DNA from: Escherichia coli
GTDB lineage: Bacteria; Pseudomonadota; Gammaproteobacteria; Enterobacterales; Enterobacteriaceae
Length of the DNA: 64,000 nt
Reading direction: 5' to 3' (one strand)
Assembly: GCF_024223415.1 (NCBI RefSeq)
Contig: NZ_CP100500.1
Position numbers and translations under genes: made by a program. Positions 1 through 41,292 of this stretch are shown here, piece by piece. Within the stretch, counting starts at the first letter, position 1. The number at the start of each line of letters is the position of its first letter. The notes beneath the pieces were generated by a model, which worked only from the letters and a program-made list of their open reading frames with translations, ran no database searches and had not been told where the DNA came from.

Positions 1-232
1 AACTCGCACATCTTTTTCACGTAAGCTATTGTTTATTCCGTTGAACCTCATTTTGAGGTTGATTGACATACCCGGGGTAAACTCATCTGCGTTGCGGTTG
101 TATATCTGGGTGATTTTATCGCCGCGCGAATACCCCAGCGCAGTAGCCAGCGTTGCGGCGGTGAACCACTGCCTGCCGTTGTGTTCGGTAGTTTCGAGAA
201 CGTGAGATTTGAATACGAGTTGGGTACTCATA
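1..232 (-). CDS. Bro-N / antirepressor-like protein, N-terminal part only (gene runs off the window start)
   Basis: Own translation of the reverse strand from the ATG at 230-232: MSTQLVFKSHVLETTEHNGRQWFTAATLATALGYSRGDKITQIYNRNADEF..., which resembles phage Bro-N domain proteins. Not in the ORF track because it is open-ended. Confidence 0.45.
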
Positions 233-613
233 GTTTTATGTCCTTTGCAATATTTTGAATTCACCCCTTTTGAGAGGGCGGTCAGGCGCTCAAAACCGTG
301 CAAAGTCGGCGGGCGTATTTCCCTTACGGGTATTGTATTAGCCTCACGCCCGACCATTGAATTCTCAATATCGTGGACATAAAAAATCCGCATGTCTGTC
401 GGGTGCGGTTTCCGCTTTGCAAGGTGTTTTGAGCACCATGACGCGGAATATAGCCCCGTTAACGCGACATTGTCAAACTGAAGAATTTTACGGATAGCAA
501 AAACCCCCGAACTGGTGAGGAACAGGGGTTTTTACTTTACTACTGATTTCGCGGTACGCTGATCTCAAACAGACGAGATTATCACCAGACTTGTAAAGTA
601 AGCAATGGGCGGA

Positions 614-1357
614 TTAAGATGAAGCGTTCGCTATCTGAGCGTCGCTGAATGTGAAACCCGCCTGTTTAAGACGCTGGATTAAGCGGGGTACTGTCTCCCG
701 AACATGGTCATTAAAGTTGAGATAAAGAATACCGGCGGCATCAGAAGGCTGCTCAAGGTGTTGTTTCTGCAGGATGACCACGTTACTGCGACCGAGTGAA
801 GATAACAGCATCCCCATTTCTAAAACTACGTTTTGGCGTGCCCTGGGCTGGGCTGCTTCCTGGCCGTCTCTTTTGGCGTATCCCACATCATCGGGAGTGA
901 GGAGAACAATGCCGAAACGCGTCGCTGTCCGTCCCTGACCAATTTCACGTTCAAGCTCTTCAATTATCGTAAGCCCGGTCCCACCGGTATTCTGCAAAAT
1001 AAAATGGTCAGGTAATCCAAGCTTATGAAGAATAAGTTCAAGCTGCTCTTTTGCTACATGATCGTGACCGTGAACGATGAAAATCTTTTTTGCTGGTTCT
1101 TGCATCATGACTGGAGCGTTACCCAGGTGTTCATTAATAATGGCTTCAACCTCAGGTTTTGCCGCTTGTGAACCCTGAATCAAAATCGTTCCGGTGTGGT
1201 AAAGCGTTATGATGGCACCATTACTTAAACGATAACAATCATGACCGGTTTTGTTTTCTTCTCCGGTAACATCAAATCCGGATTCGACTAAAAATTGACG
1301 AAAAGTATCGACAGCGTATGGGTATTTGAGTGCCATTTCATTGAGTTCCTGCATCAT
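614..1357 (-). CDS. Two-domain protein: unknown ~85-aa N-terminal domain plus C-terminal TIR-like domain (FIVHGHD ... LLTPDDVG ... RARQNVVLEMG ... LGR motifs, as in the CAP12/PycTIR-type TIR-like family). Candidate defence/abortive-infection effector
   Basis: 247-aa ORF; motif pattern recalled from the predicted nucleotide-binding TIR-like family; gene is bracketed by an exact 15-bp direct repeat and followed by a hairpin with T-tract. Confidence 0.5.
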   Translation of the reverse strand: MMQELNEMALKYPYAVDTFRQFLVESGFDVTGEENKTGHDCYRLSNGAIITLYHTGTILIQGSQAAKPEVEAIINEHLGNAPVMMQEPAKKIFIVHGHDHVAKEQLELILHKLGLPDHFILQNTGGTGLTIIEELEREIGQGRTATRFGIVLLTPDDVGYAKRDGQEAAQPRARQNVVLEMGMLLSSLGRSNVVILQKQHLEQPSDAAGILYLNFNDHVRETVPRLIQRLKQAGFTFSDAQIANASS

Positions 1358-1410
1358 TGTGTTCCTGTAAAGTAAGCAATAGTTAACAAAGTTGCAACGA
1401 CAACGATCAC

Positions 1411-3477
1411 CTAATCTTTTCTGTAACGGTACGCCTCGAATCCTCCGGCGTTTAGTGGAATGCTCGTGGCCCAGTCAGGAACGGTTGCCAGTAACTGGCT
1501 GAGATGTTCTGCTGAGTAATCGGGTGAGTCAGGGGCCTCACTTATAATTTCATCGTGTACCGTCAGCACAATGCTGTAACCGGCATCTTCGATAAGCGGC
1601 ATGTTTCCGGCCAGAACGTCGCGGGCGGCCGCCTGGGTGACGTTCTCCACCAGCTTTCCGCCGTAGGTTTTGAGTCGTTGCCATTTACGCGAATAAGAGT
1701 TAACACCCATATAGGTGATATCCCCTTTTTCGATAACCGGAGACGGGTAGCATACAGCGCGTCCGGATGGTAGCTGTATGCGCAGCCACGCGCCATCGCG
1801 GCGGATTTTAAGATAACCGCAATACAATGTTTTTTGCGGTGTGGCGATTGCAGTGCGGACGGTGCGCTCCAGTTCGTACCAGAAATCGCAGGTCGCCGGG
1901 TGCGCCCTGCGCCACAGGCGCTTGAGCGAGTCACATGCGATGAATACACGCTCGGACAGGCCAAAGGTCGACTTACGTTTAACCGATTCGTCGTACCAGC
2001 TTTTCGCCTCGCGGATAACATCGCGGGGAATGTTTGGCAGTGCGGCGTTCGCCAGCTCGTCGAGATCGAGACCGTAAACCAGAGCAAAAGTGATGAAAGC
2101 CGATACACCACCTCCATAACCCAGACCGAGTTCCATGACTTTACCGATCTGACGCATGTGTTTATCAACATCATCTGGTGCAATATCGAAAGCTTTTGCA
2201 TACGCCAGTTTATATAAGTCCGGACCCGTTCCGGCGTCGTACTCTCTGAATGCATTCAGTTTCCATTCTTCTCCCGCCAGCCATGCCAGCATACGGCCTT
2301 CAATGTTCGACAAGTCACTTACCACCAGTTTTTTGCCTGTTGGCGCGATAATGCAGCCACGTAACGCTGAACTGGTTAGTTCCATGATATTGTCAAACAG
2401 CAGGTCTGCACATCCGGCTTTCAGTGCTTCGATGCCTTCGTCTATTTGTTCCTGTTTTAGTGAAGGGCGGGGAAGGTTCTGGGGCTGGAATAGCCGTCCG
2501 GCCCAACGACCGGTACGTGACGCCCCGCAGAACTGTAGCGTACCGCGTAAGCGCCCGTCGTGGCTTACGCCTTTCATCAGTGCCTTGTATTTACTGGTGC
2601 TGGTAGTACTGGCCTGCAGGCGGATAGCCAGCAGTTCTTTCACGGCAGATGGTAAATTGGGGTCGGCAATACGACGTTCCAGAGTACTGCGTTGCATGTC
2701 TGGTAGCTCCACACCGTAGGATTCAACAATGTGCTTAATCAACGCGTCCCGTTGTGTGGCTGCCTGCACTTCGCCATCAGTCATTTCCTGTGTACGCTTT
2801 GCCAGGCGCTTTTGCTCCTGGTCTACCGCTTCGATCGCAGCGCGCGCGAGTTGAATGTCCATGCAGACGCCCCGGTCGTTGATCTGCTGATCACGATGCC
2901 AGAGTGCCAGTTCTGTCCCCTGATAATTCCACTTCGGCAGACGTTTATAGACTTCGCGCATTGCCTCGATATCCAGTCCGGCGTAAGCAACAAAGCGCCG
3001 CCATTCTTCCGGGTGGGTTTTGCTGGTGGCCCGGCGCAGTTTGCTGTTTTTCGGGCGTGGTTTGCACAGTAGCTGAATTAGTGACTTGCCTTCTTTATCC
3101 TTCGCTTTGTCCTGCGGGACGCCCAGCACTTCGCAAAGAGCGCCCAGCGCCCCCGGAAGACCATGCGCCAGCGCCTGCACCATTGTGTCGCGCCAGCGTT
3201 CAGTAGCTGGTGACATGTCTGGCATACAATGACGAAGTATCGTGCGGTCAAAGTGCGAATTGTGCGCCCAAACCTCCACATCCGGGTTTTTGAGTGCGAG
3301 ACGTAATTCCGGGGGGATTTTTTCGCCTGCGGTCAGGTCCCACACCTGCACGGGATCGTTATTGATGGCCCAGGCAAAAAGCATAATTTCAGCGCCTTCT
3401 GCATATGCGTGGGTACCGTTTTTTATCGGTATTTCAGAGAAGGTTTCAAGATCGAGCCAGAGAATGTTTGCAGGCAA
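1411..3477 (-). CDS. Phage family-A DNA polymerase with N-terminal DnaQ-like 3'-5' exonuclease
   Basis: 688-aa ORF; exonuclease motif LDLETFS near the N-terminus; polymerase motifs [16 protein letters not shown] (motif B-like K...YG) and VHDEI (motif C-like). Confidence 0.85.
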
Positions 3478-3546: not shown

Positions 3547-4311
3547 TTAACGAGGTAAGGCTGGTGGAATGTATCTGCCGATGCGGTCTTCTATGGTCGG
3601 CAGAATGCACATGCTGTCGCTGAAGCGGTCATGCAACTGGTAAACCAGTTTAGAATCCATTTTTTCGAGAGCAGGCATTAACTGCGCCCGCCAGATTTCG
3701 TTGATGCGCCGGAAGTTATGACAGACGGCGCGGAGATTGTTGATGAACATTTCCTTCTCTGCGTCAGTGACTTCTGTCTGTGTTTTCTGAATACGCTTTG
3801 TGCTGCCATTCCGATAGAAGCGTTCCTGAGCAGCAACAGCCTCATCCACGGTTGGATAGCACCCTACGTAAACGCTCTTCTCTCCGTTCCATGCGTAGGC
3901 TCTGTACGGGTTGTATTTGCTCCGGTGATGGTAAACCATCTTCGGCAGACACTCCCTGTGTGGCGCCAGTATCGTGGAGGATTGCTGGTGCAGTTTGCGT
4001 TCGCACTCGATGAAGTATCGGCGGATCTGGCGGCCTTTTTCGTTGCGCTCCACCATCGCCAGTTCTTTGGCCGTGTCGAGGGTGAGGTGGTAGTCCTTAC
4101 AAAGAACATTTTTACGCTTTCCAGTTTTGGAAAACGTTACGATATAATCCTGATTTTCAACGAATTCATAGTCTGCAATTCGTGATGTAATCCACGCTGC
4201 AAACACTTTCCCTACCCCAAGGAATGCGTGCAGATCGCGAGCATTGCAGAGCAGGGTGGTTTCGTTGGCGATAGCGCCGTTGAAAACGGGGATGAGTTGA
4301 GTTGCCATCAC
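3547..4311 (-). CDS. Protein with AntA/AntB-type antirepressor N-terminal domain
   Basis: 254-aa ORF; N-terminal LIPVFNG ... LHAFLGVGKVFAAWITSRIADYEFVENQDY ... YHLTLDTAKELAMVERNEKGRQIRRYF resembles the AntA/AntB antirepressor domain. Confidence 0.55.
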   Translation of the reverse strand: MMATQLIPVFNGAIANETTLLCNARDLHAFLGVGKVFAAWITSRIADYEFVENQDYIVTFSKTGKRKNVLCKDYHLTLDTAKELAMVERNEKGRQIRRYFIECERKLHQQSSTILAPHRECLPKMVYHHRSKYNPYRAYAWNGEKSVYVGCYPTVDEAVAAQERFYRNGSTKRIQKTQTEVTDAEKEMFINNLRAVCHNFRRINEIWRAQLMPALEKMDSKLVYQLHDRFSDSMCILPTIEDRIGRYIPPALPR

Positions 4312-4469
4312 AGTTACCTCTAACGGTGAAATTCACCGCCACCACTGAGTTGCAAATCTCATATGGGTGGCGAACTGACGAGGTTTGCAATACCGGCGTT
4401 AGAGGAAACCGGCGCGCCGAAGCGCCCCCGCCAGCCCGCCATAATGCGAACGTGGCAAAGCTTGCGACA

Positions 4470-4500
4470 ATAAAAAAGACGCTGGCGCGTCTGGTGTCGC
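4470..4500 (-). terminator. Rho-independent terminator-like hairpin downstream of the DUF2815 gene
   Basis: On the minus strand, AGACGCGCCAGCGTCT hairpin followed by TTTTTTATT (plus-strand aataaaaaagacgctggcgcgtct). Confidence 0.5.
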
Positions 4501-4691
4501 CCCTAACAATTCCGGGTTGCAAATCCCGATCTCCATTTGGGAGATTCGGTGAGCATAAACCGGAAGGGGGCGATGAGTCAATATCGGGGTAGCAGGGCGA
4601 CTGGGTGCTAACCAGAACAATACAGGTAGCTCCGGGCATATTCCCCTTTGCAAAAACACCCGGCGTTTAACCGGGCGTCTGTGAAGCAGGA

Positions 4692-5255: not shown

Positions 5256-6560
5256 TCAGATGAGGTCAGCGGCGAGCGCGTCGTCGGACACGTCATCGAA
5301 ATCATTTACAGGGTTAATATTGAGTGCGGGGCGCGGATCTGAATCAGGAACGACGGTGGGTTTACCGTCCGCTCGTGTTATCAGGGCCTCGACTTTTGGC
5401 CAGCGGCGCGGACTGGCTTTTTTGATGAGTTTTTCTGCTTTGGCAGGGCTAATCAGTTTAAAGTCGAAAACTTCTTCAGTTTTATACCTGAACTGATCCT
5501 TCAGAAGAGCTCGAGCTGCTTCCTCATCACTCCAGGTCCGGTTACCTTGTTTTCCTGTTACCAGTTTAAACCCCGGTACCGTATGCCCGGCATGGAGTTC
5601 ATTGTGAACCCGGTCACGTAGCGCTTTGCAAAAAGACTCAATCAGGTCAACATGGCTGTAAATGTCTGCCAGTTGTTCAGCGGTCAGTAGTGGTACACGC
5701 TTAACGGCATCTGCGAGTTGCTCGCCAACGGGTCTGCTCAGGTCAACGAAGTCGTCCGCAACGGCGTTAAGTCTGGCCTGTGCTTCTGCTGAACACAGCC
5801 CACCTTTTGCTTTACAGAAGAGGCACTGTTTCTCGCCTGGTGTGAAGTTTTCAGGTGGCAGGGTTTCGACGCCTTCGCAATCGGCGATGTTGAACATCAC
5901 GATCACACTGGCGGCAGCTTCCTGCGCCCGTTTGCCGAATGCCTGCAGTTCCTCCACCGTCAGGGACCACTCTGAAACGTGGTTAATCCGCGGCTGGTGG
6001 ATGAACAGGCGCACCGTCTCGAAGTCGTACAGAAGGCTGAACTGCTCGAGCACGCCCAGGGCATACAGCTGCAACTGCTCGTTCTGCTCAGCGTCGACAC
6101 GCACTCCCTTACCGTATTTCAGGTCGTGGATCTGCAGTTCGTTACCCGCGATGATTATGCAGTCGGCAGTTCCGAAAGAGTCTTCCACACCGACGATGTG
6201 GGAGAAGTCTACGCGTTGCTCAACCAGCAGCGTGTTGCCCTGTGCCAGTGACCAGACTGTATCAACATACCGGCCAACGGCTTCGACCATTTCCTCATCC
6301 ACCTGTGGGCCAGATGTATCATCAGGATTTGCGCGAAGGGGGTATGAGCCGAGAAACATAGAAACATTGCATCCGGCGTAGTGTTCCGGGTGACTTTGCC
6401 TGTTTCGCAGGACTTTTTCTGCAAGCGCGTGCGCCGCAGTACCTTCAACAGCAAAGGATGTTTCTTTGTCAGGCTGAGTGGACTCCAGCGCCAGACTGCC
6501 GCTACAACGCATCCATCTGTGGGCGGCTGATGGAGATAATTTTGCATGAACCTCGGGCAT
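5256..6560 (-). CDS. DUF2800-type PD-(D/E)XK nuclease-like phage protein
   Basis: 434-aa ORF; N-terminal [15 protein letters not shown] motif typical of DUF2800; C-terminal cysteines ([11 protein letters not shown]). Confidence 0.6.
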
Positions 6561-7665: not shown

Positions 7666-7748
7666 GCTGTTGCGAGTGCGCTTTCAGACATAAAAAAGCC
7701 CGTCACTTGCGGCGGGCAAAGACTACACACAGCAATTACATGGATGAT

Positions 7749-7943
7749 TCAGTTGGTATTGTGCGTACGTGGTACCACGAGGTTGAAGCGGACACGCCAG
7801 TGCGTTGCAATGGTATGCAGGAAAGCACCACATCTAGGGCAGTGCTCATAACATTCGTTGATTTGGTATCGTTTTGGCTTTGGTGTCTGAAGTTGTGTTT
7901 GGCAAGCAGGGCATTCACCTTTGAGCGGTTTATACGTTTTCAC
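7749..7943 (-). CDS. Small zinc-ribbon-like hypothetical protein
   Basis: 64-aa ORF with CPAC ... CPRC cysteine pairs. Confidence 0.35.
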   Translation of the reverse strand: MKTYKPLKGECPACQTQLQTPKPKRYQINECYEHCPRCGAFLHTIATHWRVRFNLVVPRTHNTN

Positions 7944-16550: not shown

Positions 16551-16774
16551 CCATTACAAAAGCCACTCCCTACAGAGTGGCTTTGATAATGGCTTATACC
16601 CTACACGGGATAACTTAACTGATATCCCTTTTAACGGATAAAGGTATTCAAGCCTGACACATCATGCGCTGTATCGTCGCCGTATTCCCGTATTAACAGA
16701 GACCGTAGCCCGACGGGGAACTCCTTCTGCGAGAGTGTGCGGGAATAATCAAAAACGATGCACACCGGGTTTTT
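16551..16774. repeat. Direct repeat copy 1 (~224 bp) upstream of the two-gene cassette
   Basis: Near-identical to 18338..18560, with only a few mismatches by eye. Confidence 0.8.
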
Positions 16775-18337: not shown

Positions 18338-18560
18338 CCATTACAAAAGCCATTCGCTACAGAGTGGCTTTGATAATGGTTTATACCCTGTACGGGATAA
18401 CTTAACTGATATCCCTTTTAACGGATAAAGGTATTCAAGCCTGACACATCATGCGCTGTATCGTCGCCGTATTCCCGTATTAACAGAGACCGTAGCCCGA
18501 CGGGGAACTCCTTCTGCGCGAGTGTGCGGGAATAATCAAAAACGATGCACACCGGGTTTT
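18338..18560. repeat. Direct repeat copy 2 (~223 bp), immediately after the membrane-protein stop codon
   Basis: Near-identical to 16551..16774. Confidence 0.8.
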
Positions 18561-39477: not shown

Positions 39478-41292
39478 ATGGCGGCTGTAAAAATTTCAGG
39501 CGTGCTGAGGGACGGAACCGGAAAACCGGTACCGGGATGCATTATTGAGCTGAAAGCGAAGAGAACCAGCGAGACAGTCATCGCCACGACAGTGGCTTAT
39601 GGCATGCCGGAAGAGACGGGGAGTTACAGTATGGATGTGGAGCCAGGAATATACAGGGTGACACTCAATACAGAAGGTTACCGTCCTTCGTATGTGGGAG
39701 ATATCGTGGTCAGGGAGGATTCTTCACCGGGAACACTGAATAAATTTCTGATGGAGATGGAAGATGCTCCTTATTATCCGAAGGCGTTGTCAGAGCTGGA
39801 GGCTGTGGTGCAGTCCATACTGCACAGAGCAGAGTCCGCGGCATCTGAGGCGGAGGAAGCCCGGAAACGAGCAGCATCTGCCCGGGGACCACGAGGAGAG
39901 AAAGGGGATACCGGCGCTCGTGGTGAAAGAGGCATTACCGGGCCACAGGGGCCAAAAGGTGAAACAGGAGCACGTGGCCCGGCAGGACCACAGGGACCAA
40001 AAGGTGAAACAGGTGAACGCGGTCCGGCAGGTCCACAGGGACTAAAGGGCGATACAGGTGAACGCGGCCCGGCAGGTCCACAGGGACCAAAGGGTGAAAC
40101 AGGTGCACGCGGCCCGGCAGGTCCACAGGGAGCAAAGGGCGAAACAGGTGAACGCGGCCCGGCAGGTCCACAGGGAGCAAAGGGCGAAACAGGTGCACGT
40201 GGTCCGGAAGGCCCTCAGGGTCTGAAGGGAGAAAAGGGTGAGCGAGGAGAAAAAGGCCCTAAGGGGGATAAAGGAGATCCGGGAGGTCCACAGGGACCAA
40301 AGGGGGATACAGGTGAACGCGGCCCGGCAGGTCCACAGGGATCAAAGGGCGATACAGGTGAACGTGGCCCGGCAGGTCCTCAGGGACCAAAGGGGGATAC
40401 AGGTGAACGTGGCCCGGAAGGTCCACAGGGAGCAAAGGGTGAAACAGGTGAACGCGGCCCGGCAGGACCACAGGGACCAAAAGGTGAAACAGGTGAACGC
40501 GGTCCGACAGGTCCACAGGGAGCAAAAGGTGAAACAGGAGCACGCGGTCCGGCAGGTCCTCAGGGACCAAGAGGAGAGTCAGCCCGTGGACAACTGCTGA
40601 ATGGTGATCTGAACCGACTGGGACGAGTGACCGATCAGGGTGATTATTATCAGCCATCAGACAGTGGGGCTACACGAGAAAATAATTATCCGATTCAGAG
40701 AGCGGGTTATCTTCAGGTAAGAGTTGGTGCATGGGGATATTGCCAGCATGAATATACAACCTGGAACCCACCACGAAAGTTCGTAAGAACTGTTACTGGT
40801 AATTTTACCGGTAATGGCCCCTGGTCTGAATGGAAAGAGCTGGGAGCCCAGGGGGAGCGTGGTCCACAGGGACCAAAAGGTGAAACAGGTGCACGCGGTC
40901 CGGCAGGTCCACAGGGACTAAAGGGCGAAACAGGTGCACGTGGCCTGGCAGGTCCTCGGGGGCCAAGAGGGTATACAGGTGAACGCGGCCCGGCAGGTCC
41001 ACAGGGGCCAAGAGGAGAAGCGGGGCGGCCAGCGAGCGTCGGAAGTGTTTATTCCGTGGGGTCTTATGTTCTGGGGATCATAGAACGAAATCATGAGATA
41101 ACAAATACCCGTCAAATACCCGGGTATCGTATCAGACAGGCCGTTATTGTGTCGTCGTCATCGGATAAACTTACAGATATCCGCTTTTTATTTGGCAATC
41201 CTATGCTTGGTACATGGATGTTATGCACAACTAACATGACGGTGAATAATATCAGTGGGACGATTTGGGGCCTGTTTCAGAGAATACTGTGA
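39478..41292 (+). CDS. stf: Side tail fibre protein (Stf-like N-terminus) with long collagen-like Gly-X-Y repeat region
   Basis: N-terminus [18 protein letters not shown] resembles lambda Stf; two blocks of GXY triplets ([19 protein letters not shown]...). Confidence 0.8.

What the first reader, a model, noticed from the sequence alone, without database searches (positions are those of the whole stretch)
592..1380. Single TIR-like-domain gene bracketed by an exact 15-bp direct repeat (TGTAAAGTAAGCAAT)
The 247-aa ORF has a C-terminal domain matching the TIR-like family seen in CBASS Cap12 and Pycsar PycTIR effectors (FIVHGHD, LLTPDDVG, RARQNVVLEMG, LGR) and an unassigned ~85-aa N-terminal domain. 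The same 15-mer lies immediately downstream of its stop (592..606) and immediately upstream of its start (1366..1380), a cassette-insertion signature. No partner cyclase is visible nearby, so it may be a stand-alone sensor-effector (NADase-type abortive infection) or an orphan effector.
Basis: partly seen in the sequence, partly recalled or inferred. Interest (0 to 1): 0.75.

Follow-up and report, generated by a model that had tools for sequence, protein, structure and literature searches.

The report
Prophage stand-alone TIR-like defence candidate gene
An E. coli prophage carries, just after its DNA polymerase gene, a single gene that joins an RNase-HIII-type nucleic-acid-binding domain to a TIR-like NAD-cleaving domain; it belongs to a catalogued but untested phage-defence candidate family, and the 15-base repeat around it is real but does not mark a cassette insertion site.

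The parts
614..1357 (-). 247-aa ORF: TBP-like N-domain, variable linker and PF10137 TIR-like domain. A member of PADLOC candidate PDC-S35 and of phrog_16442.
   Evidence: an identical 246-aa protein (second ATG) is on 27 E. coli contigs
1124..1333 (-). N-terminal domain (residues 9-78), beta-alpha-beta4-alpha TBP-like fold with the invariant motif TGT.x.QG (G47, Q61, G62). Putative nucleic-acid sensor.
710..1087 (-). TIR-like domain (Pfam residues 91-216; the conserved core extends to about residue 235).
   Evidence: PF10137 E 1e-30. PDB profile hits are Cap12 TIR-STING 9lmq/7un8 and PycTIR 8jsj. Foldseek top hits are TIR-STING, SPARTA TIR and SARM1. Mean pairwise identity is 75% across phyla.
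818..820 (-). Codon of invariant Glu180 in the motif RQNVVLEMG. It aligns with the Glu of RDNVVFEFG in Cap12 and of RDNVHLEFG in PycTIR; presumed catalytic residue.
   Evidence: the catalytic role in Cap12 comes from my own knowledge and was not tested here
1366..1380 (.). Upstream copy of the 15-mer, inside the 53-nt polymerase-TIR intergenic leader, 8 nt before the ATG and abutting the AGGAA ribosome-binding site.
   Evidence: 13/15 conserved in L004, L103, L104, L105
592..606 (.). Downstream copy of the 15-mer, 7 nt past the stop codon, at the junction with the upstream end of an antirepressor module. Found only in this allele lineage.
1411..3477 (-). Family A DNA polymerase (688 aa), immediately upstream on the same strand.
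   Evidence: phrog_17 E 1e-127; annotated as DNA polymerase in relatives
494..569 (-). Intrinsic terminator with an ohsC-like sRNA element that ends the TIR transcript. It belongs to the antirepressor module, not to TIR.
   Evidence: Rfam ohsC 44.5 bits, below the gathering score of 50. Terminator scan and fold. The same element lies upstream of Ant in L005 and is absent from TIR-bearing L004, L104 and L105.
447..476 (-). Strong sigma-70-like promoter (TTGACA-18-TATATT, 11/12) of the downstream antirepressor-like gene.
1..231 (-). 5' part of an Ant/Rha-type antirepressor gene, cut by the window edge. Its leader carries an sRNA-Xcc1 match at 272-355.

Best explanation
The gene is a real, intact accessory gene of an E. 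coli prophage replication module (exonuclease, single-strand-binding protein, variable slot, PolA, TIR, variable slot, ANR, VRR-NUC ... helicase, integrase). It encodes a two-domain, stand-alone protein of the catalogued but uncharacterised candidate defence family PDC-S35. The N-terminal 80 residues form a TBP-like fold closest to the duplex (RNA/DNA hybrid)-binding domain of RNase HIII. A variable linker joins it to a very conserved Cap12/PycTIR-type TIR domain with the invariant Glu. Proposed mechanism (inferred, not shown): the N-domain recognises a nucleic-acid structure or another cue produced by an infecting phage; this clusters the TIR domains, which then hydrolyse NAD+ and abort the infection, protecting the lysogen population. 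No second-messenger cyclase is required. The 15-bp direct repeat is a genuine, recent feature of one allele lineage. Its upstream copy is the ordinary conserved leader of the gene. Its downstream copy sits at the recombination junction where an antirepressor module (terminator, promoter, sRNA leader, Ant/Bro/Rha gene) replaced the gene's native terminator. It is a mosaic-junction scar of unresolved origin, not the boundary of a mobile cassette.
Against: No experiment on this family was found: PDC-S35 gave no literature hit. NADase activity, the trigger and any defence phenotype are all inferred. Sequence similarity of the N-domain to RNase HIII is below threshold (E 0.03-0.2), and Pfam DUF3378 is not detected in the bridging protein P0190, so the link rests on fold and architecture. 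TBP-like folds also bind proteins and small ligands. The gene lies 53 nt after PolA with no promoter call, so it may be transcribed only with the early lytic operon. That would fit a phage-serving role better than lysogen defence. The full-length model is only moderately confident in the TIR half (pLDDT 50-80). How the exact 15-nt duplication arose is not explained.
Confidence: 0.55

Rival explanations
1. Orphan effector: the protein is switched on by a nucleotide second messenger made by a cyclase or TIR encoded elsewhere in the host (CBASS, Pycsar or Thoeris type), and the N-domain is the ligand receptor.
For: The closest characterised relatives of the TIR domain, Cap12 and PycTIR, are signal-activated effectors.
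Against: The N-domain is not a STING, SAVED, cNMP-binding, SLOG or Macro fold; its best matches are nucleic-acid-binding TBP-like domains. No cyclase lies within 10 kb in 8 loci or in six other contexts across taxa. The family travels as a single gene, including as a one-gene integron cassette. The NCBIfam Cap12 models score 33 bits against a cut-off of 450.
Confidence: 0.08
2. Phage-serving enzyme: the gene is part of the early replication operon and acts during the phage's own lytic cycle. It might remodel nucleotide or NAD pools, act as an N-glycosidase at RNA/DNA hybrid primers, or destroy host immune signals.
For: It lies 53 nt after PolA on the same strand with no consensus promoter between them. 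It is syntenic with PolA in many E. coli prophages and in the isolated phage vB_EcoM-689R2. The N-domain resembles the hybrid-binding domain of a replication-associated RNase. The wider TIR/DrHyd/SLOG class includes nucleotide N-glycosidases (PMC9503650).
Against: Many relatives of the same prophage family lack the gene, or carry it in another slot. Homologues thrive outside phages, in defence islands and integron arrays. The same N-domain is fused to a validated anti-phage effector family. In Salmonella the gene follows an opposite-strand gene and so needs its own promoter.
Confidence: 0.17
3. The two 15-mers are true insertion boundaries: a target-site or att duplication made when a TIR cassette entered a PolA-Ant junction.
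For: The repeat is exact, sharply bounded, and lies within 8 nt of both ORF ends. It is far beyond chance. The gene does occupy different slots in related prophages, and it is a bona fide integron cassette in Vibrio.
Against: Homology with TIR-bearing relatives runs uninterrupted from PolA through the upstream 15-mer position into the gene. More divergent alleles lack the downstream copy, so the repeat is derived. TIR-less relatives have no single copy. The Klebsiella remnant carries the gene together with 440 nt of PolA and with ANR, so transfer boundaries lie elsewhere. There is no recombinase, transposase or terminal inverted repeat, and the 15-mer recurs at no other module junction. No empty site was found in four collections.
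Confidence: 0.12
4. The 15-mer copies are cis-regulatory. The downstream copy would supply a -35-like TTGCTT, 16 nt before GATAAT, for the ohsC-like sRNA. Nine nucleotides of the 15-mer (UUACUUUAC, next to the TIR ribosome-binding site) are complementary to GUAAAGUAA in that sRNA. This suggests antisense control of TIR translation, as in a type I toxin-antitoxin pair.
For: There is an ohsC-like element with both hairpins at 494-569. The promoter geometry and the 9-nt complementarity can be read directly from the sequence. I estimate the chance of such a 9-mer match at about 0.002-0.004; this is a post hoc estimate.
Against: The ohsC-like element travels with Ant modules and is absent from TIR-bearing L004, L104 and L105. 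It sits at a different locus in L005, so TIR does not need it. GUAAAGUAA is also part of the chromosomal ohsC terminator stem. The Rfam score is below the gathering threshold. The minimum-energy fold does not use this pairing.
Confidence: 0.08

Closest known systems
PADLOC phage-defence candidate PDC-S35 (single-gene candidate; PADLOC-DB v2)
   Same: Full-length match to model PDLC05003 (positions 3-245 of 245, E 9e-107), with weaker matches to the four other PDC-S35 models. It is a single gene with no partner.
   Different: Nothing structural differs. The family has no described mechanism or published test that I could find, so membership says little about function.
CBASS Cap12 (TIR-STING) effectors
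   Same: Same Pfam TIR subfamily (PF10137). Shared R-NVV-E-G and PSD-G motifs. Best PDB sequence and fold matches.
   Different: No STING domain and no CD-NTase nearby. The NCBIfam Cap12 equivalog models score 33 bits against a cut-off of 450. The sensor is N-terminal and TBP-like.
Pycsar PycTIR effector
   Same: Same TIR subfamily; PADLOC PycTIR hit over residues 126-227 (E 1e-8) and PDB 8jsj.
   Different: No cyclic-nucleotide-binding domain and no pyrimidine cyclase gene.
SPARTA (short prokaryotic Argonaute with TIR-APAZ)
   Same: This is a 'works like' comparison. There, nucleic-acid recognition directly triggers TIR oligomerisation and NAD+ depletion, which is the mechanism proposed here. 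The SPARTA TIR is among the fold matches.
   Different: No Argonaute or APAZ; a different TIR subfamily; no guide RNA. Here the trigger is only inferred.
RNase HIII N-terminal TBP-like substrate-binding domain (Pfam DUF3378)
   Different: Sequence similarity is below significance (E 0.03-0.2). It is fused to TIR rather than to an RNase H domain. Substrate binding is untested.
Anti-phage dCTP deaminase (NCBIfam NF041025; PADLOC dCTPase)
   Same: A subset (for example P0224 and P0245) carries the same N-terminal domain in place of its usual N-terminus. This indicates a shared, portable sensor.
   Different: The effector chemistry differs: dCTP deamination rather than NAD+ cleavage.
Phage morons and mosaic junctions of lambdoid prophages
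   Same: A low-GC accessory gene in a variable slot, present or absent among otherwise collinear relatives. The neighbouring Ant module has the classic terminator-promoter-gene layout.
   Different: An exact 15-nt duplication bracketing the gene is not a usual moron feature, and TIR itself shows no promoter call of its own.

Membership tests
Pfam PF10137 CAP12/PycTIR TIR domain | Significant full-length match to the family HMM | tested here: met
   E 1e-30, 106.6 bits, model positions 1-118 of 119, residues 91-216
Pfam PF10137 CAP12/PycTIR TIR domain | Conserved Glu in the NVxxExG motif (presumed catalytic) | tested here: met
   E180 is invariant in 46 homologues and aligns with the Glu of Cap12 and PycTIR chains. 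Catalysis itself was not tested.
PADLOC PDC-S35 | Full-length match to a PDC-S35 HMM, as a single gene | tested here: met
   PDLC05003 E 9e-107, positions 3-245 of 245; no conserved neighbour
PADLOC PDC-S35 | Demonstrated anti-phage activity | not testable with these tools
   No paper in the searchable library mentions PDC-S35
CBASS Cap12 effector | Cyclic-dinucleotide sensor domain (STING or similar) fused to the TIR domain | tested here: not met
   Only PF10137 plus a TBP-like N-domain; Cap12 equivalog models score 33 bits against a cut-off of 450
CBASS Cap12 effector | Adjacent CD-NTase gene | tested here: not met
   No such Pfam family within 10 kb on either side in 8 loci with the identical allele; window neighbours give no PADLOC hit
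Pycsar PycTIR | Cyclic-nucleotide-binding domain and an adjacent pyrimidine cyclase | tested here: not met
   The PycTIR model matches only the TIR core, residues 126-227; no cyclase nearby
Thoeris ThsB | ThsB-type TIR (PF08937) with a neighbouring ThsA effector | tested here: not met
   Pfam reports only PF10137. No SIR2/SLOG or Macro ThsA lies beside the gene in the window lineage.
RNase HIII N-terminal domain (DUF3378, TBP-like) | Significant sequence match to PF11858 or to the N-terminal part of TIGR00716 | tested here: inconclusive
   E 0.046 (Pfam), 0.026 (TIGR00716, residues 15-67), 0.21 (PDB 3vn5). All are sub-threshold but positionally consistent.
RNase HIII N-terminal domain (DUF3378, TBP-like) | Beta-alpha-beta4-alpha TBP-like fold | tested here: met
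RNase HIII N-terminal domain (DUF3378, TBP-like) | Binds RNA/DNA hybrid or other duplex nucleic acid | not testable with these tools
   Needs a binding assay
Mobile gene cassette bounded by a duplicated target or att site | Related genomes lacking the gene keep one copy of the repeat at the empty site | tested here: not met
   TIR-less L002, L003 and L014 have no copy with up to 3 mismatches. No hit to junction or empty-site patterns in four collections.
Mobile gene cassette bounded by a duplicated target or att site | The repeats coincide with the limits of homology between genomes with and without the gene | tested here: not met
   The limits are at about 455 and 1411-1413 against TIR-less relatives, and at 612 against TIR-bearing relatives
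Integron gene cassette | An attC recombination site at the cassette end, within an array next to an integron integrase | tested here: not met
   Not met in the window: no attC-like repeat family. Met for the Vibrio parahaemolyticus homologue, which lies between attC-type repeats at 5877-5999 and 6756-6907 of L095.

The most novel reading that the evidence does not exclude
The roughly 75-residue N-terminal domain may be a portable pattern-recognition module of the RNase HIII type. It would detect RNA/DNA hybrids or another phage replication or transcription intermediate directly, and would switch on whichever effector it is fused to: TIR-like NADase here, dCTP deaminase, membrane proteins or Schlafen-type nucleases elsewhere. 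That would define a new class of direct nucleic-acid sensing in bacterial immunity. This prophage, which encodes its own PolA-based replication, would carry it to exclude competitors.
Probability: 0.3. Interest if true: 0.75.

Novelty: new member of a known kind. Interest (0 to 1): 0.42.

Why it matters
If the proposed mechanism holds, this would be one of the simplest bacterial immune proteins. A small nucleic-acid-binding domain borrowed from RNase HIII would be wired directly to an NAD+-destroying TIR domain, with no signalling partner. The same sensor domain on a validated anti-phage dCTP deaminase gives a directly testable hypothesis about what these effectors detect, and the trigger of many single-protein defence systems is still unknown. 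It also adds to the picture of prophage replication modules as hotspots for defence genes. For the scan itself, the result is a caution: an exact repeat bracketing a gene can be a junction scar of phage mosaicism rather than a mobile-element boundary.

Tried and rejected
1. Empty-site search. I searched exact junction patterns (flank plus 15-mer, both sides) in IMG/VR and in JGI metagenomes. I also ran blastn of 440-700 against complete E. coli genomes and of 456-660 against GenBank phages. Nothing carried the junction, so the allele is confined to a few draft E. coli genomes.

2. The 15-mer as a recurrent module-boundary 'linker'. Rejected: no further copy with up to 3 mismatches in the window or in 17 related E. 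coli loci, apart from the 13/15 leader version.

3. Bracketing repeats as a family-wide property. Rejected: the flanks of 65 homologue loci share only 5-9 nt, with one case of 11 and the exception of the Vibrio attC case.

4. An ohsC-like sRNA as a dedicated antitoxin for TIR. Rejected as a general feature, because the element travels with Ant modules and is missing from other TIR-bearing prophages.

5. Chaining the N-domain to Pfam DUF3378 through the RNase HIII-like protein P0190. Pfam sees only the RNase_HII core there, so homology stays inferred from fold, motif and architecture.

6. Literature. No paper names PDC-S35. Searches for TIR with TBP-like or RNase HIII domains, or for prophage TIR-like NADases, found only general background.

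7. Klebsiella context. I first read it as an independent P4-satellite hotspot. Blast shows it is a remnant of the same prophage module lying beside a P4-like element.

8. Other defence genes among the window neighbours. No PADLOC hits, except weak HTH-type matches of the repressor.

Full report
OBSERVATION. The window carries a 247-aa ORF at 614..1357 on the minus strand, with an ATG-ATG start and a TAA stop at 614-616. TGTAAAGTAAGCAAT occurs exactly twice in 64 kb, at 592-606 and 1366-1380, which is 7 nt after the stop and 8 nt before the start. No further copy appears with up to two mismatches, and the identity ends sharply on both sides. A handful of unrelated exact 15-17-mer pairs exist elsewhere in the window, so a 15-mer pair as such is not remarkable. 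Its position is. Only 1 of 20,000 shuffles of the two 100-nt flanks shared 15 nt. Among 65 loci that encode homologues, the flanks normally share only 5-9 nt, with one case of 11.

WHAT THE GENE IS. Pfam assigns residues 91-216 to PF10137, the Cap12/Pycsar-effector TIR domain (E 1e-30). The PADLOC model PDC-S35 (PDLC05003) matches the protein from end to end (E 9e-107), whereas the CBASS TIR-effector and PycTIR models match only the TIR core. NCBIfam's Cap12 equivalog models score 33 bits against a cut-off of 450. PHROGs places the protein in phrog_16442, of unknown function. A profile of 46 homologues hits only Cap12 TIR-STING (9lmq, 7un8) and PycTIR (8jsj) in the PDB, through the shared R-NVV-E-G...LG...PSD-G core. 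The invariant Glu180 aligns with their Glu. The AlphaFold model is moderate (pLDDT 75) and finds TIR-STING, SPARTA TIR and SARM1 as best folds.

A profile of the N-domain searched against 1.84 billion representative proteins found 953 proteins with E at or below 1e-3. Of 52 of the listed matches of 140 residues or more that I scanned with Pfam, 18 carry PF10137. P0224 and P0245 carry the domain in front of an anti-phage dCTP deaminase (NF041025 at 488 bits against a cut-off of 400; PADLOC dCTPase at 7e-173). P0216 carries it in front of a multi-pass membrane region. P0190 has two copies directly before an RNase HIII catalytic core and a DinG-type helicase. I read the domain as a portable, RNase-HIII-type nucleic-acid-binding module used as a sensor by several effectors. 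Two further points fit this. The N-domain is far more variable than the TIR domain (34% against 75% mean pairwise identity). TBP-like domains are also listed among the fusion partners of prokaryotic Schlafen defence nucleases (PMC13056530). Homology to RNase HIII stays an inference: Pfam does not see DUF3378 in P0190.

GENOMIC CONTEXT. The gene sits in the leftward early/replication module of an E. coli prophage. The order is CI-like repressor, unknown gene, DUF2800 exonuclease, Gp2.5-like single-strand-binding protein, Ant, family A DNA polymerase, TIR, then an Ant/Rha-type gene. Eight draft-genome loci with the identical protein continue with ANR, VRR-NUC, Arc, SNF2 helicase and an integrase beside yfhL-shoB-acpS. 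None has a cyclase within 10 kb.

Related prophages differ at this position:
- Some have TIR at the same place (L001 from the isolated phage vB_EcoM-689R2, plus L004, L005 and L103-L105).
- Some lack it: L002 and L014 run from PolA straight into an Ant leader, and L003 runs from PolA into ANR.
- A Salmonella relative carries a 60%-identical copy upstream of PolA.
- The variable slots also hold SIR2, Nmad5, HNH endonucleases and a methyltransferase.

Outside this phage family, homologues occur in several other settings:
- As a one-gene, attC-flanked cassette in a Vibrio parahaemolyticus chromosomal integron.
- Beside an integrase, Mrr and PemK.
- Beside DUF4062, a reverse transcriptase and two toxin-antitoxin pairs in Halomonas.
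- Near a serine recombinase and T6SS/Rhs genes in Ralstonia.
- In a degraded remnant of the prophage module in Klebsiella.

No neighbour is conserved. The gene's GC content is 46%, against 54% for PolA.

THE 15-MER. On the gene strand the arrangement reads: PolA stop, 30 nt, ATTGCTTACTTTACA, GGAACACA, ATG...TAA, TCCGCCC, ATTGCTTACTTTACA, AGTCTGGT, then the upstream end of an antirepressor module. That module consists of an ohsC-like terminator at 494-569, the promoter TTGACA-18-TATATT at 476-447, an sRNA-Xcc1 leader at 272-355, and the gene at 1-231.

- Relatives at 82-93% identity (L004, L103-L105) are collinear from PolA through the leader into TIR. They have ATTGCTTATTTTATA (13/15) at the upstream position. 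Downstream they have their own hairpin terminator and then ANR, with no second copy.
- The more divergent L001/L005 type also has TIR, a terminator and ANR. That arrangement is therefore ancestral, and the downstream copy is a derived feature of the window lineage, created where an Ant module replaced the native terminator.
- Against TIR-less relatives, homology ends at the PolA stop (1411-1413) and resumes near 455. Both repeats therefore lie inside the indel, and those genomes hold no copy at all.
- The Klebsiella remnant carries the gene together with 440 nt of PolA and with ANR.
- No junction or empty-site sequence turned up in IMG/VR, JGI metagenomes, GenBank phages or 5,426 complete E. 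coli genomes.

The repeat is real and recent, but it is not a cassette boundary. How 15 nt of the leader were copied to the junction is unresolved. I looked at one regulatory idea. The downstream copy could give a -35-like hexamer for the ohsC-like RNA, and 9 nt of the 15-mer are complementary to that RNA. But the ohsC-like element travels with Ant modules and is absent from other TIR-bearing prophages.

MECHANISM.
Shown here:
- The domain identities.
- The conserved Glu.
- The single-gene status.
- The mobile-element and defence-island contexts.
- The modular reuse of the N-domain.
Inferred:
- The N-domain binds a nucleic-acid structure or another infection cue.
- Binding clusters the TIR domains.
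- The TIR domains then cleave NAD+ and abort the infection, as nucleic-acid-triggered SPARTA and ligand-triggered Cap12/PycTIR do.

The main rival is a phage-serving role in the lytic cycle. The gene follows PolA by 53 nt with no promoter call. A weak TTGCAA-17-TACTTT can be read in the leader, and the Salmonella copy must have its own promoter because it follows an opposite-strand gene. An orphan second-messenger effector is unlikely, given the fold of the N-domain and the lack of any recurring cyclase.

NOVELTY AND VERDICT. The protein is 100% identical to database entries annotated only as a nucleotide-binding or TIR-domain protein. It is a full-length member of PADLOC's candidate family PDC-S35, for which I found no publication. 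I therefore rate it a new member of a known, catalogued but uncharacterised, kind. The added value here is threefold: the assignment of the N-domain, its reuse on other defence effectors, and the rejection of the cassette-boundary reading. Interest is moderate at 0.42. It would be higher (0.75) if the N-domain proves to be a general hybrid or nucleic-acid sensor, to which I give a probability of about 0.3.

Noticed in passing
window 494-569 (-); L006 18069-18145: There is an ohsC-like sRNA/terminator (Rfam RF02495, 44.5 bits, below the gathering score of 50) directly after the downstream 15-mer. The genuine ohsC (101.7 bits) and shoB lie in the chromosome about 1 kb beyond the prophage integrase end in related loci. 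The phage copy travels with antirepressor modules (also L005 5928-6003).
   Followed up: partly
window 272-355 (-), 4363-4446 (-), 4472-4545 (-): The leaders of the two antirepressor genes carry known sRNA families above their gathering scores. sRNA-Xcc1 (79.8 bits) lies before the gene at 1-231. isrK (50.9 bits) and C4 antisense RNA (70.6 bits), together with a1/b1 target sites, lie before Ant at 3547-4311. This is a P1 immI-like control arrangement.
   Followed up: partly
window 16551-16773 and 18338-18560: A direct repeat of about 225 bp (exact blocks of 127, 41 and 23 nt) brackets two genes of unknown function (phrog_2571, 341 aa; phrog_3054, 165 aa). They lie between the Rz spanin and the small terminase subunit. 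There is no PADLOC or NCBIfam hit. This is a much longer gene-bracketing repeat than the one in the finding.
   Followed up: partly
L002 2709-3580 and L003 (corresponds to window 2121/2131): The family A DNA polymerase of some related prophages is 944 aa instead of 688 aa. The cause is an in-frame insertion of about 870 bp that splits the Pfam DNA_pol_A match. The insert has no Pfam hit; it could be an intein or a homing element.
   Followed up: partly
L095 5877-6907 (Vibrio parahaemolyticus contig): A 53%-identical homologue is a single-gene cassette in a chromosomal integron array. At least 19 attC-type repeats lie in 12.7 kb, and one flanks each side of the gene.
   Followed up: yes
proteins P0224, P0245, P0216, P0190 (metagenomic representatives): The N-terminal domain of the TIR protein also occurs fused to an anti-phage dCTP deaminase and to a multi-pass membrane protein. 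In two to four copies it precedes an RNase HIII catalytic core joined to a DinG-type helicase.
   Followed up: yes
L004 5970-7472; L012/L013 6495-7819; L014 1519-2547: The variable slots of this prophage family's replication module hold other defence-like or DNA-modification genes. Examples are a SIR2-family protein, Nmad5 with a UCP028583 gene, HNH endonucleases and a cytosine methyltransferase. The module behaves as an accessory-gene hotspot.
   Followed up: no
L106 4567-5301 (Salmonella enterica contig): In a Salmonella prophage of the same family the TIR homologue (60% identity) lies upstream of the polymerase. It is followed by DUF2335 and a Bro-N gene, so it sits in a different slot from the E. 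coli copy.
   Followed up: partly
window 7688-7797 (-): There is an RprA-like match (48.9 bits, below the gathering score of 70) in the intergenic region between the CI-like repressor and the early operon. A similar match occurs in phage vB_EcoM-689R2 (L001 9695-9808).
   Followed up: no
window 39955-40923: Dense short direct repeats encoding collagen-like Gly-X-Y triplets lie within a 604-aa ORF (39478-41292) in the tail-fibre region.
   Followed up: no
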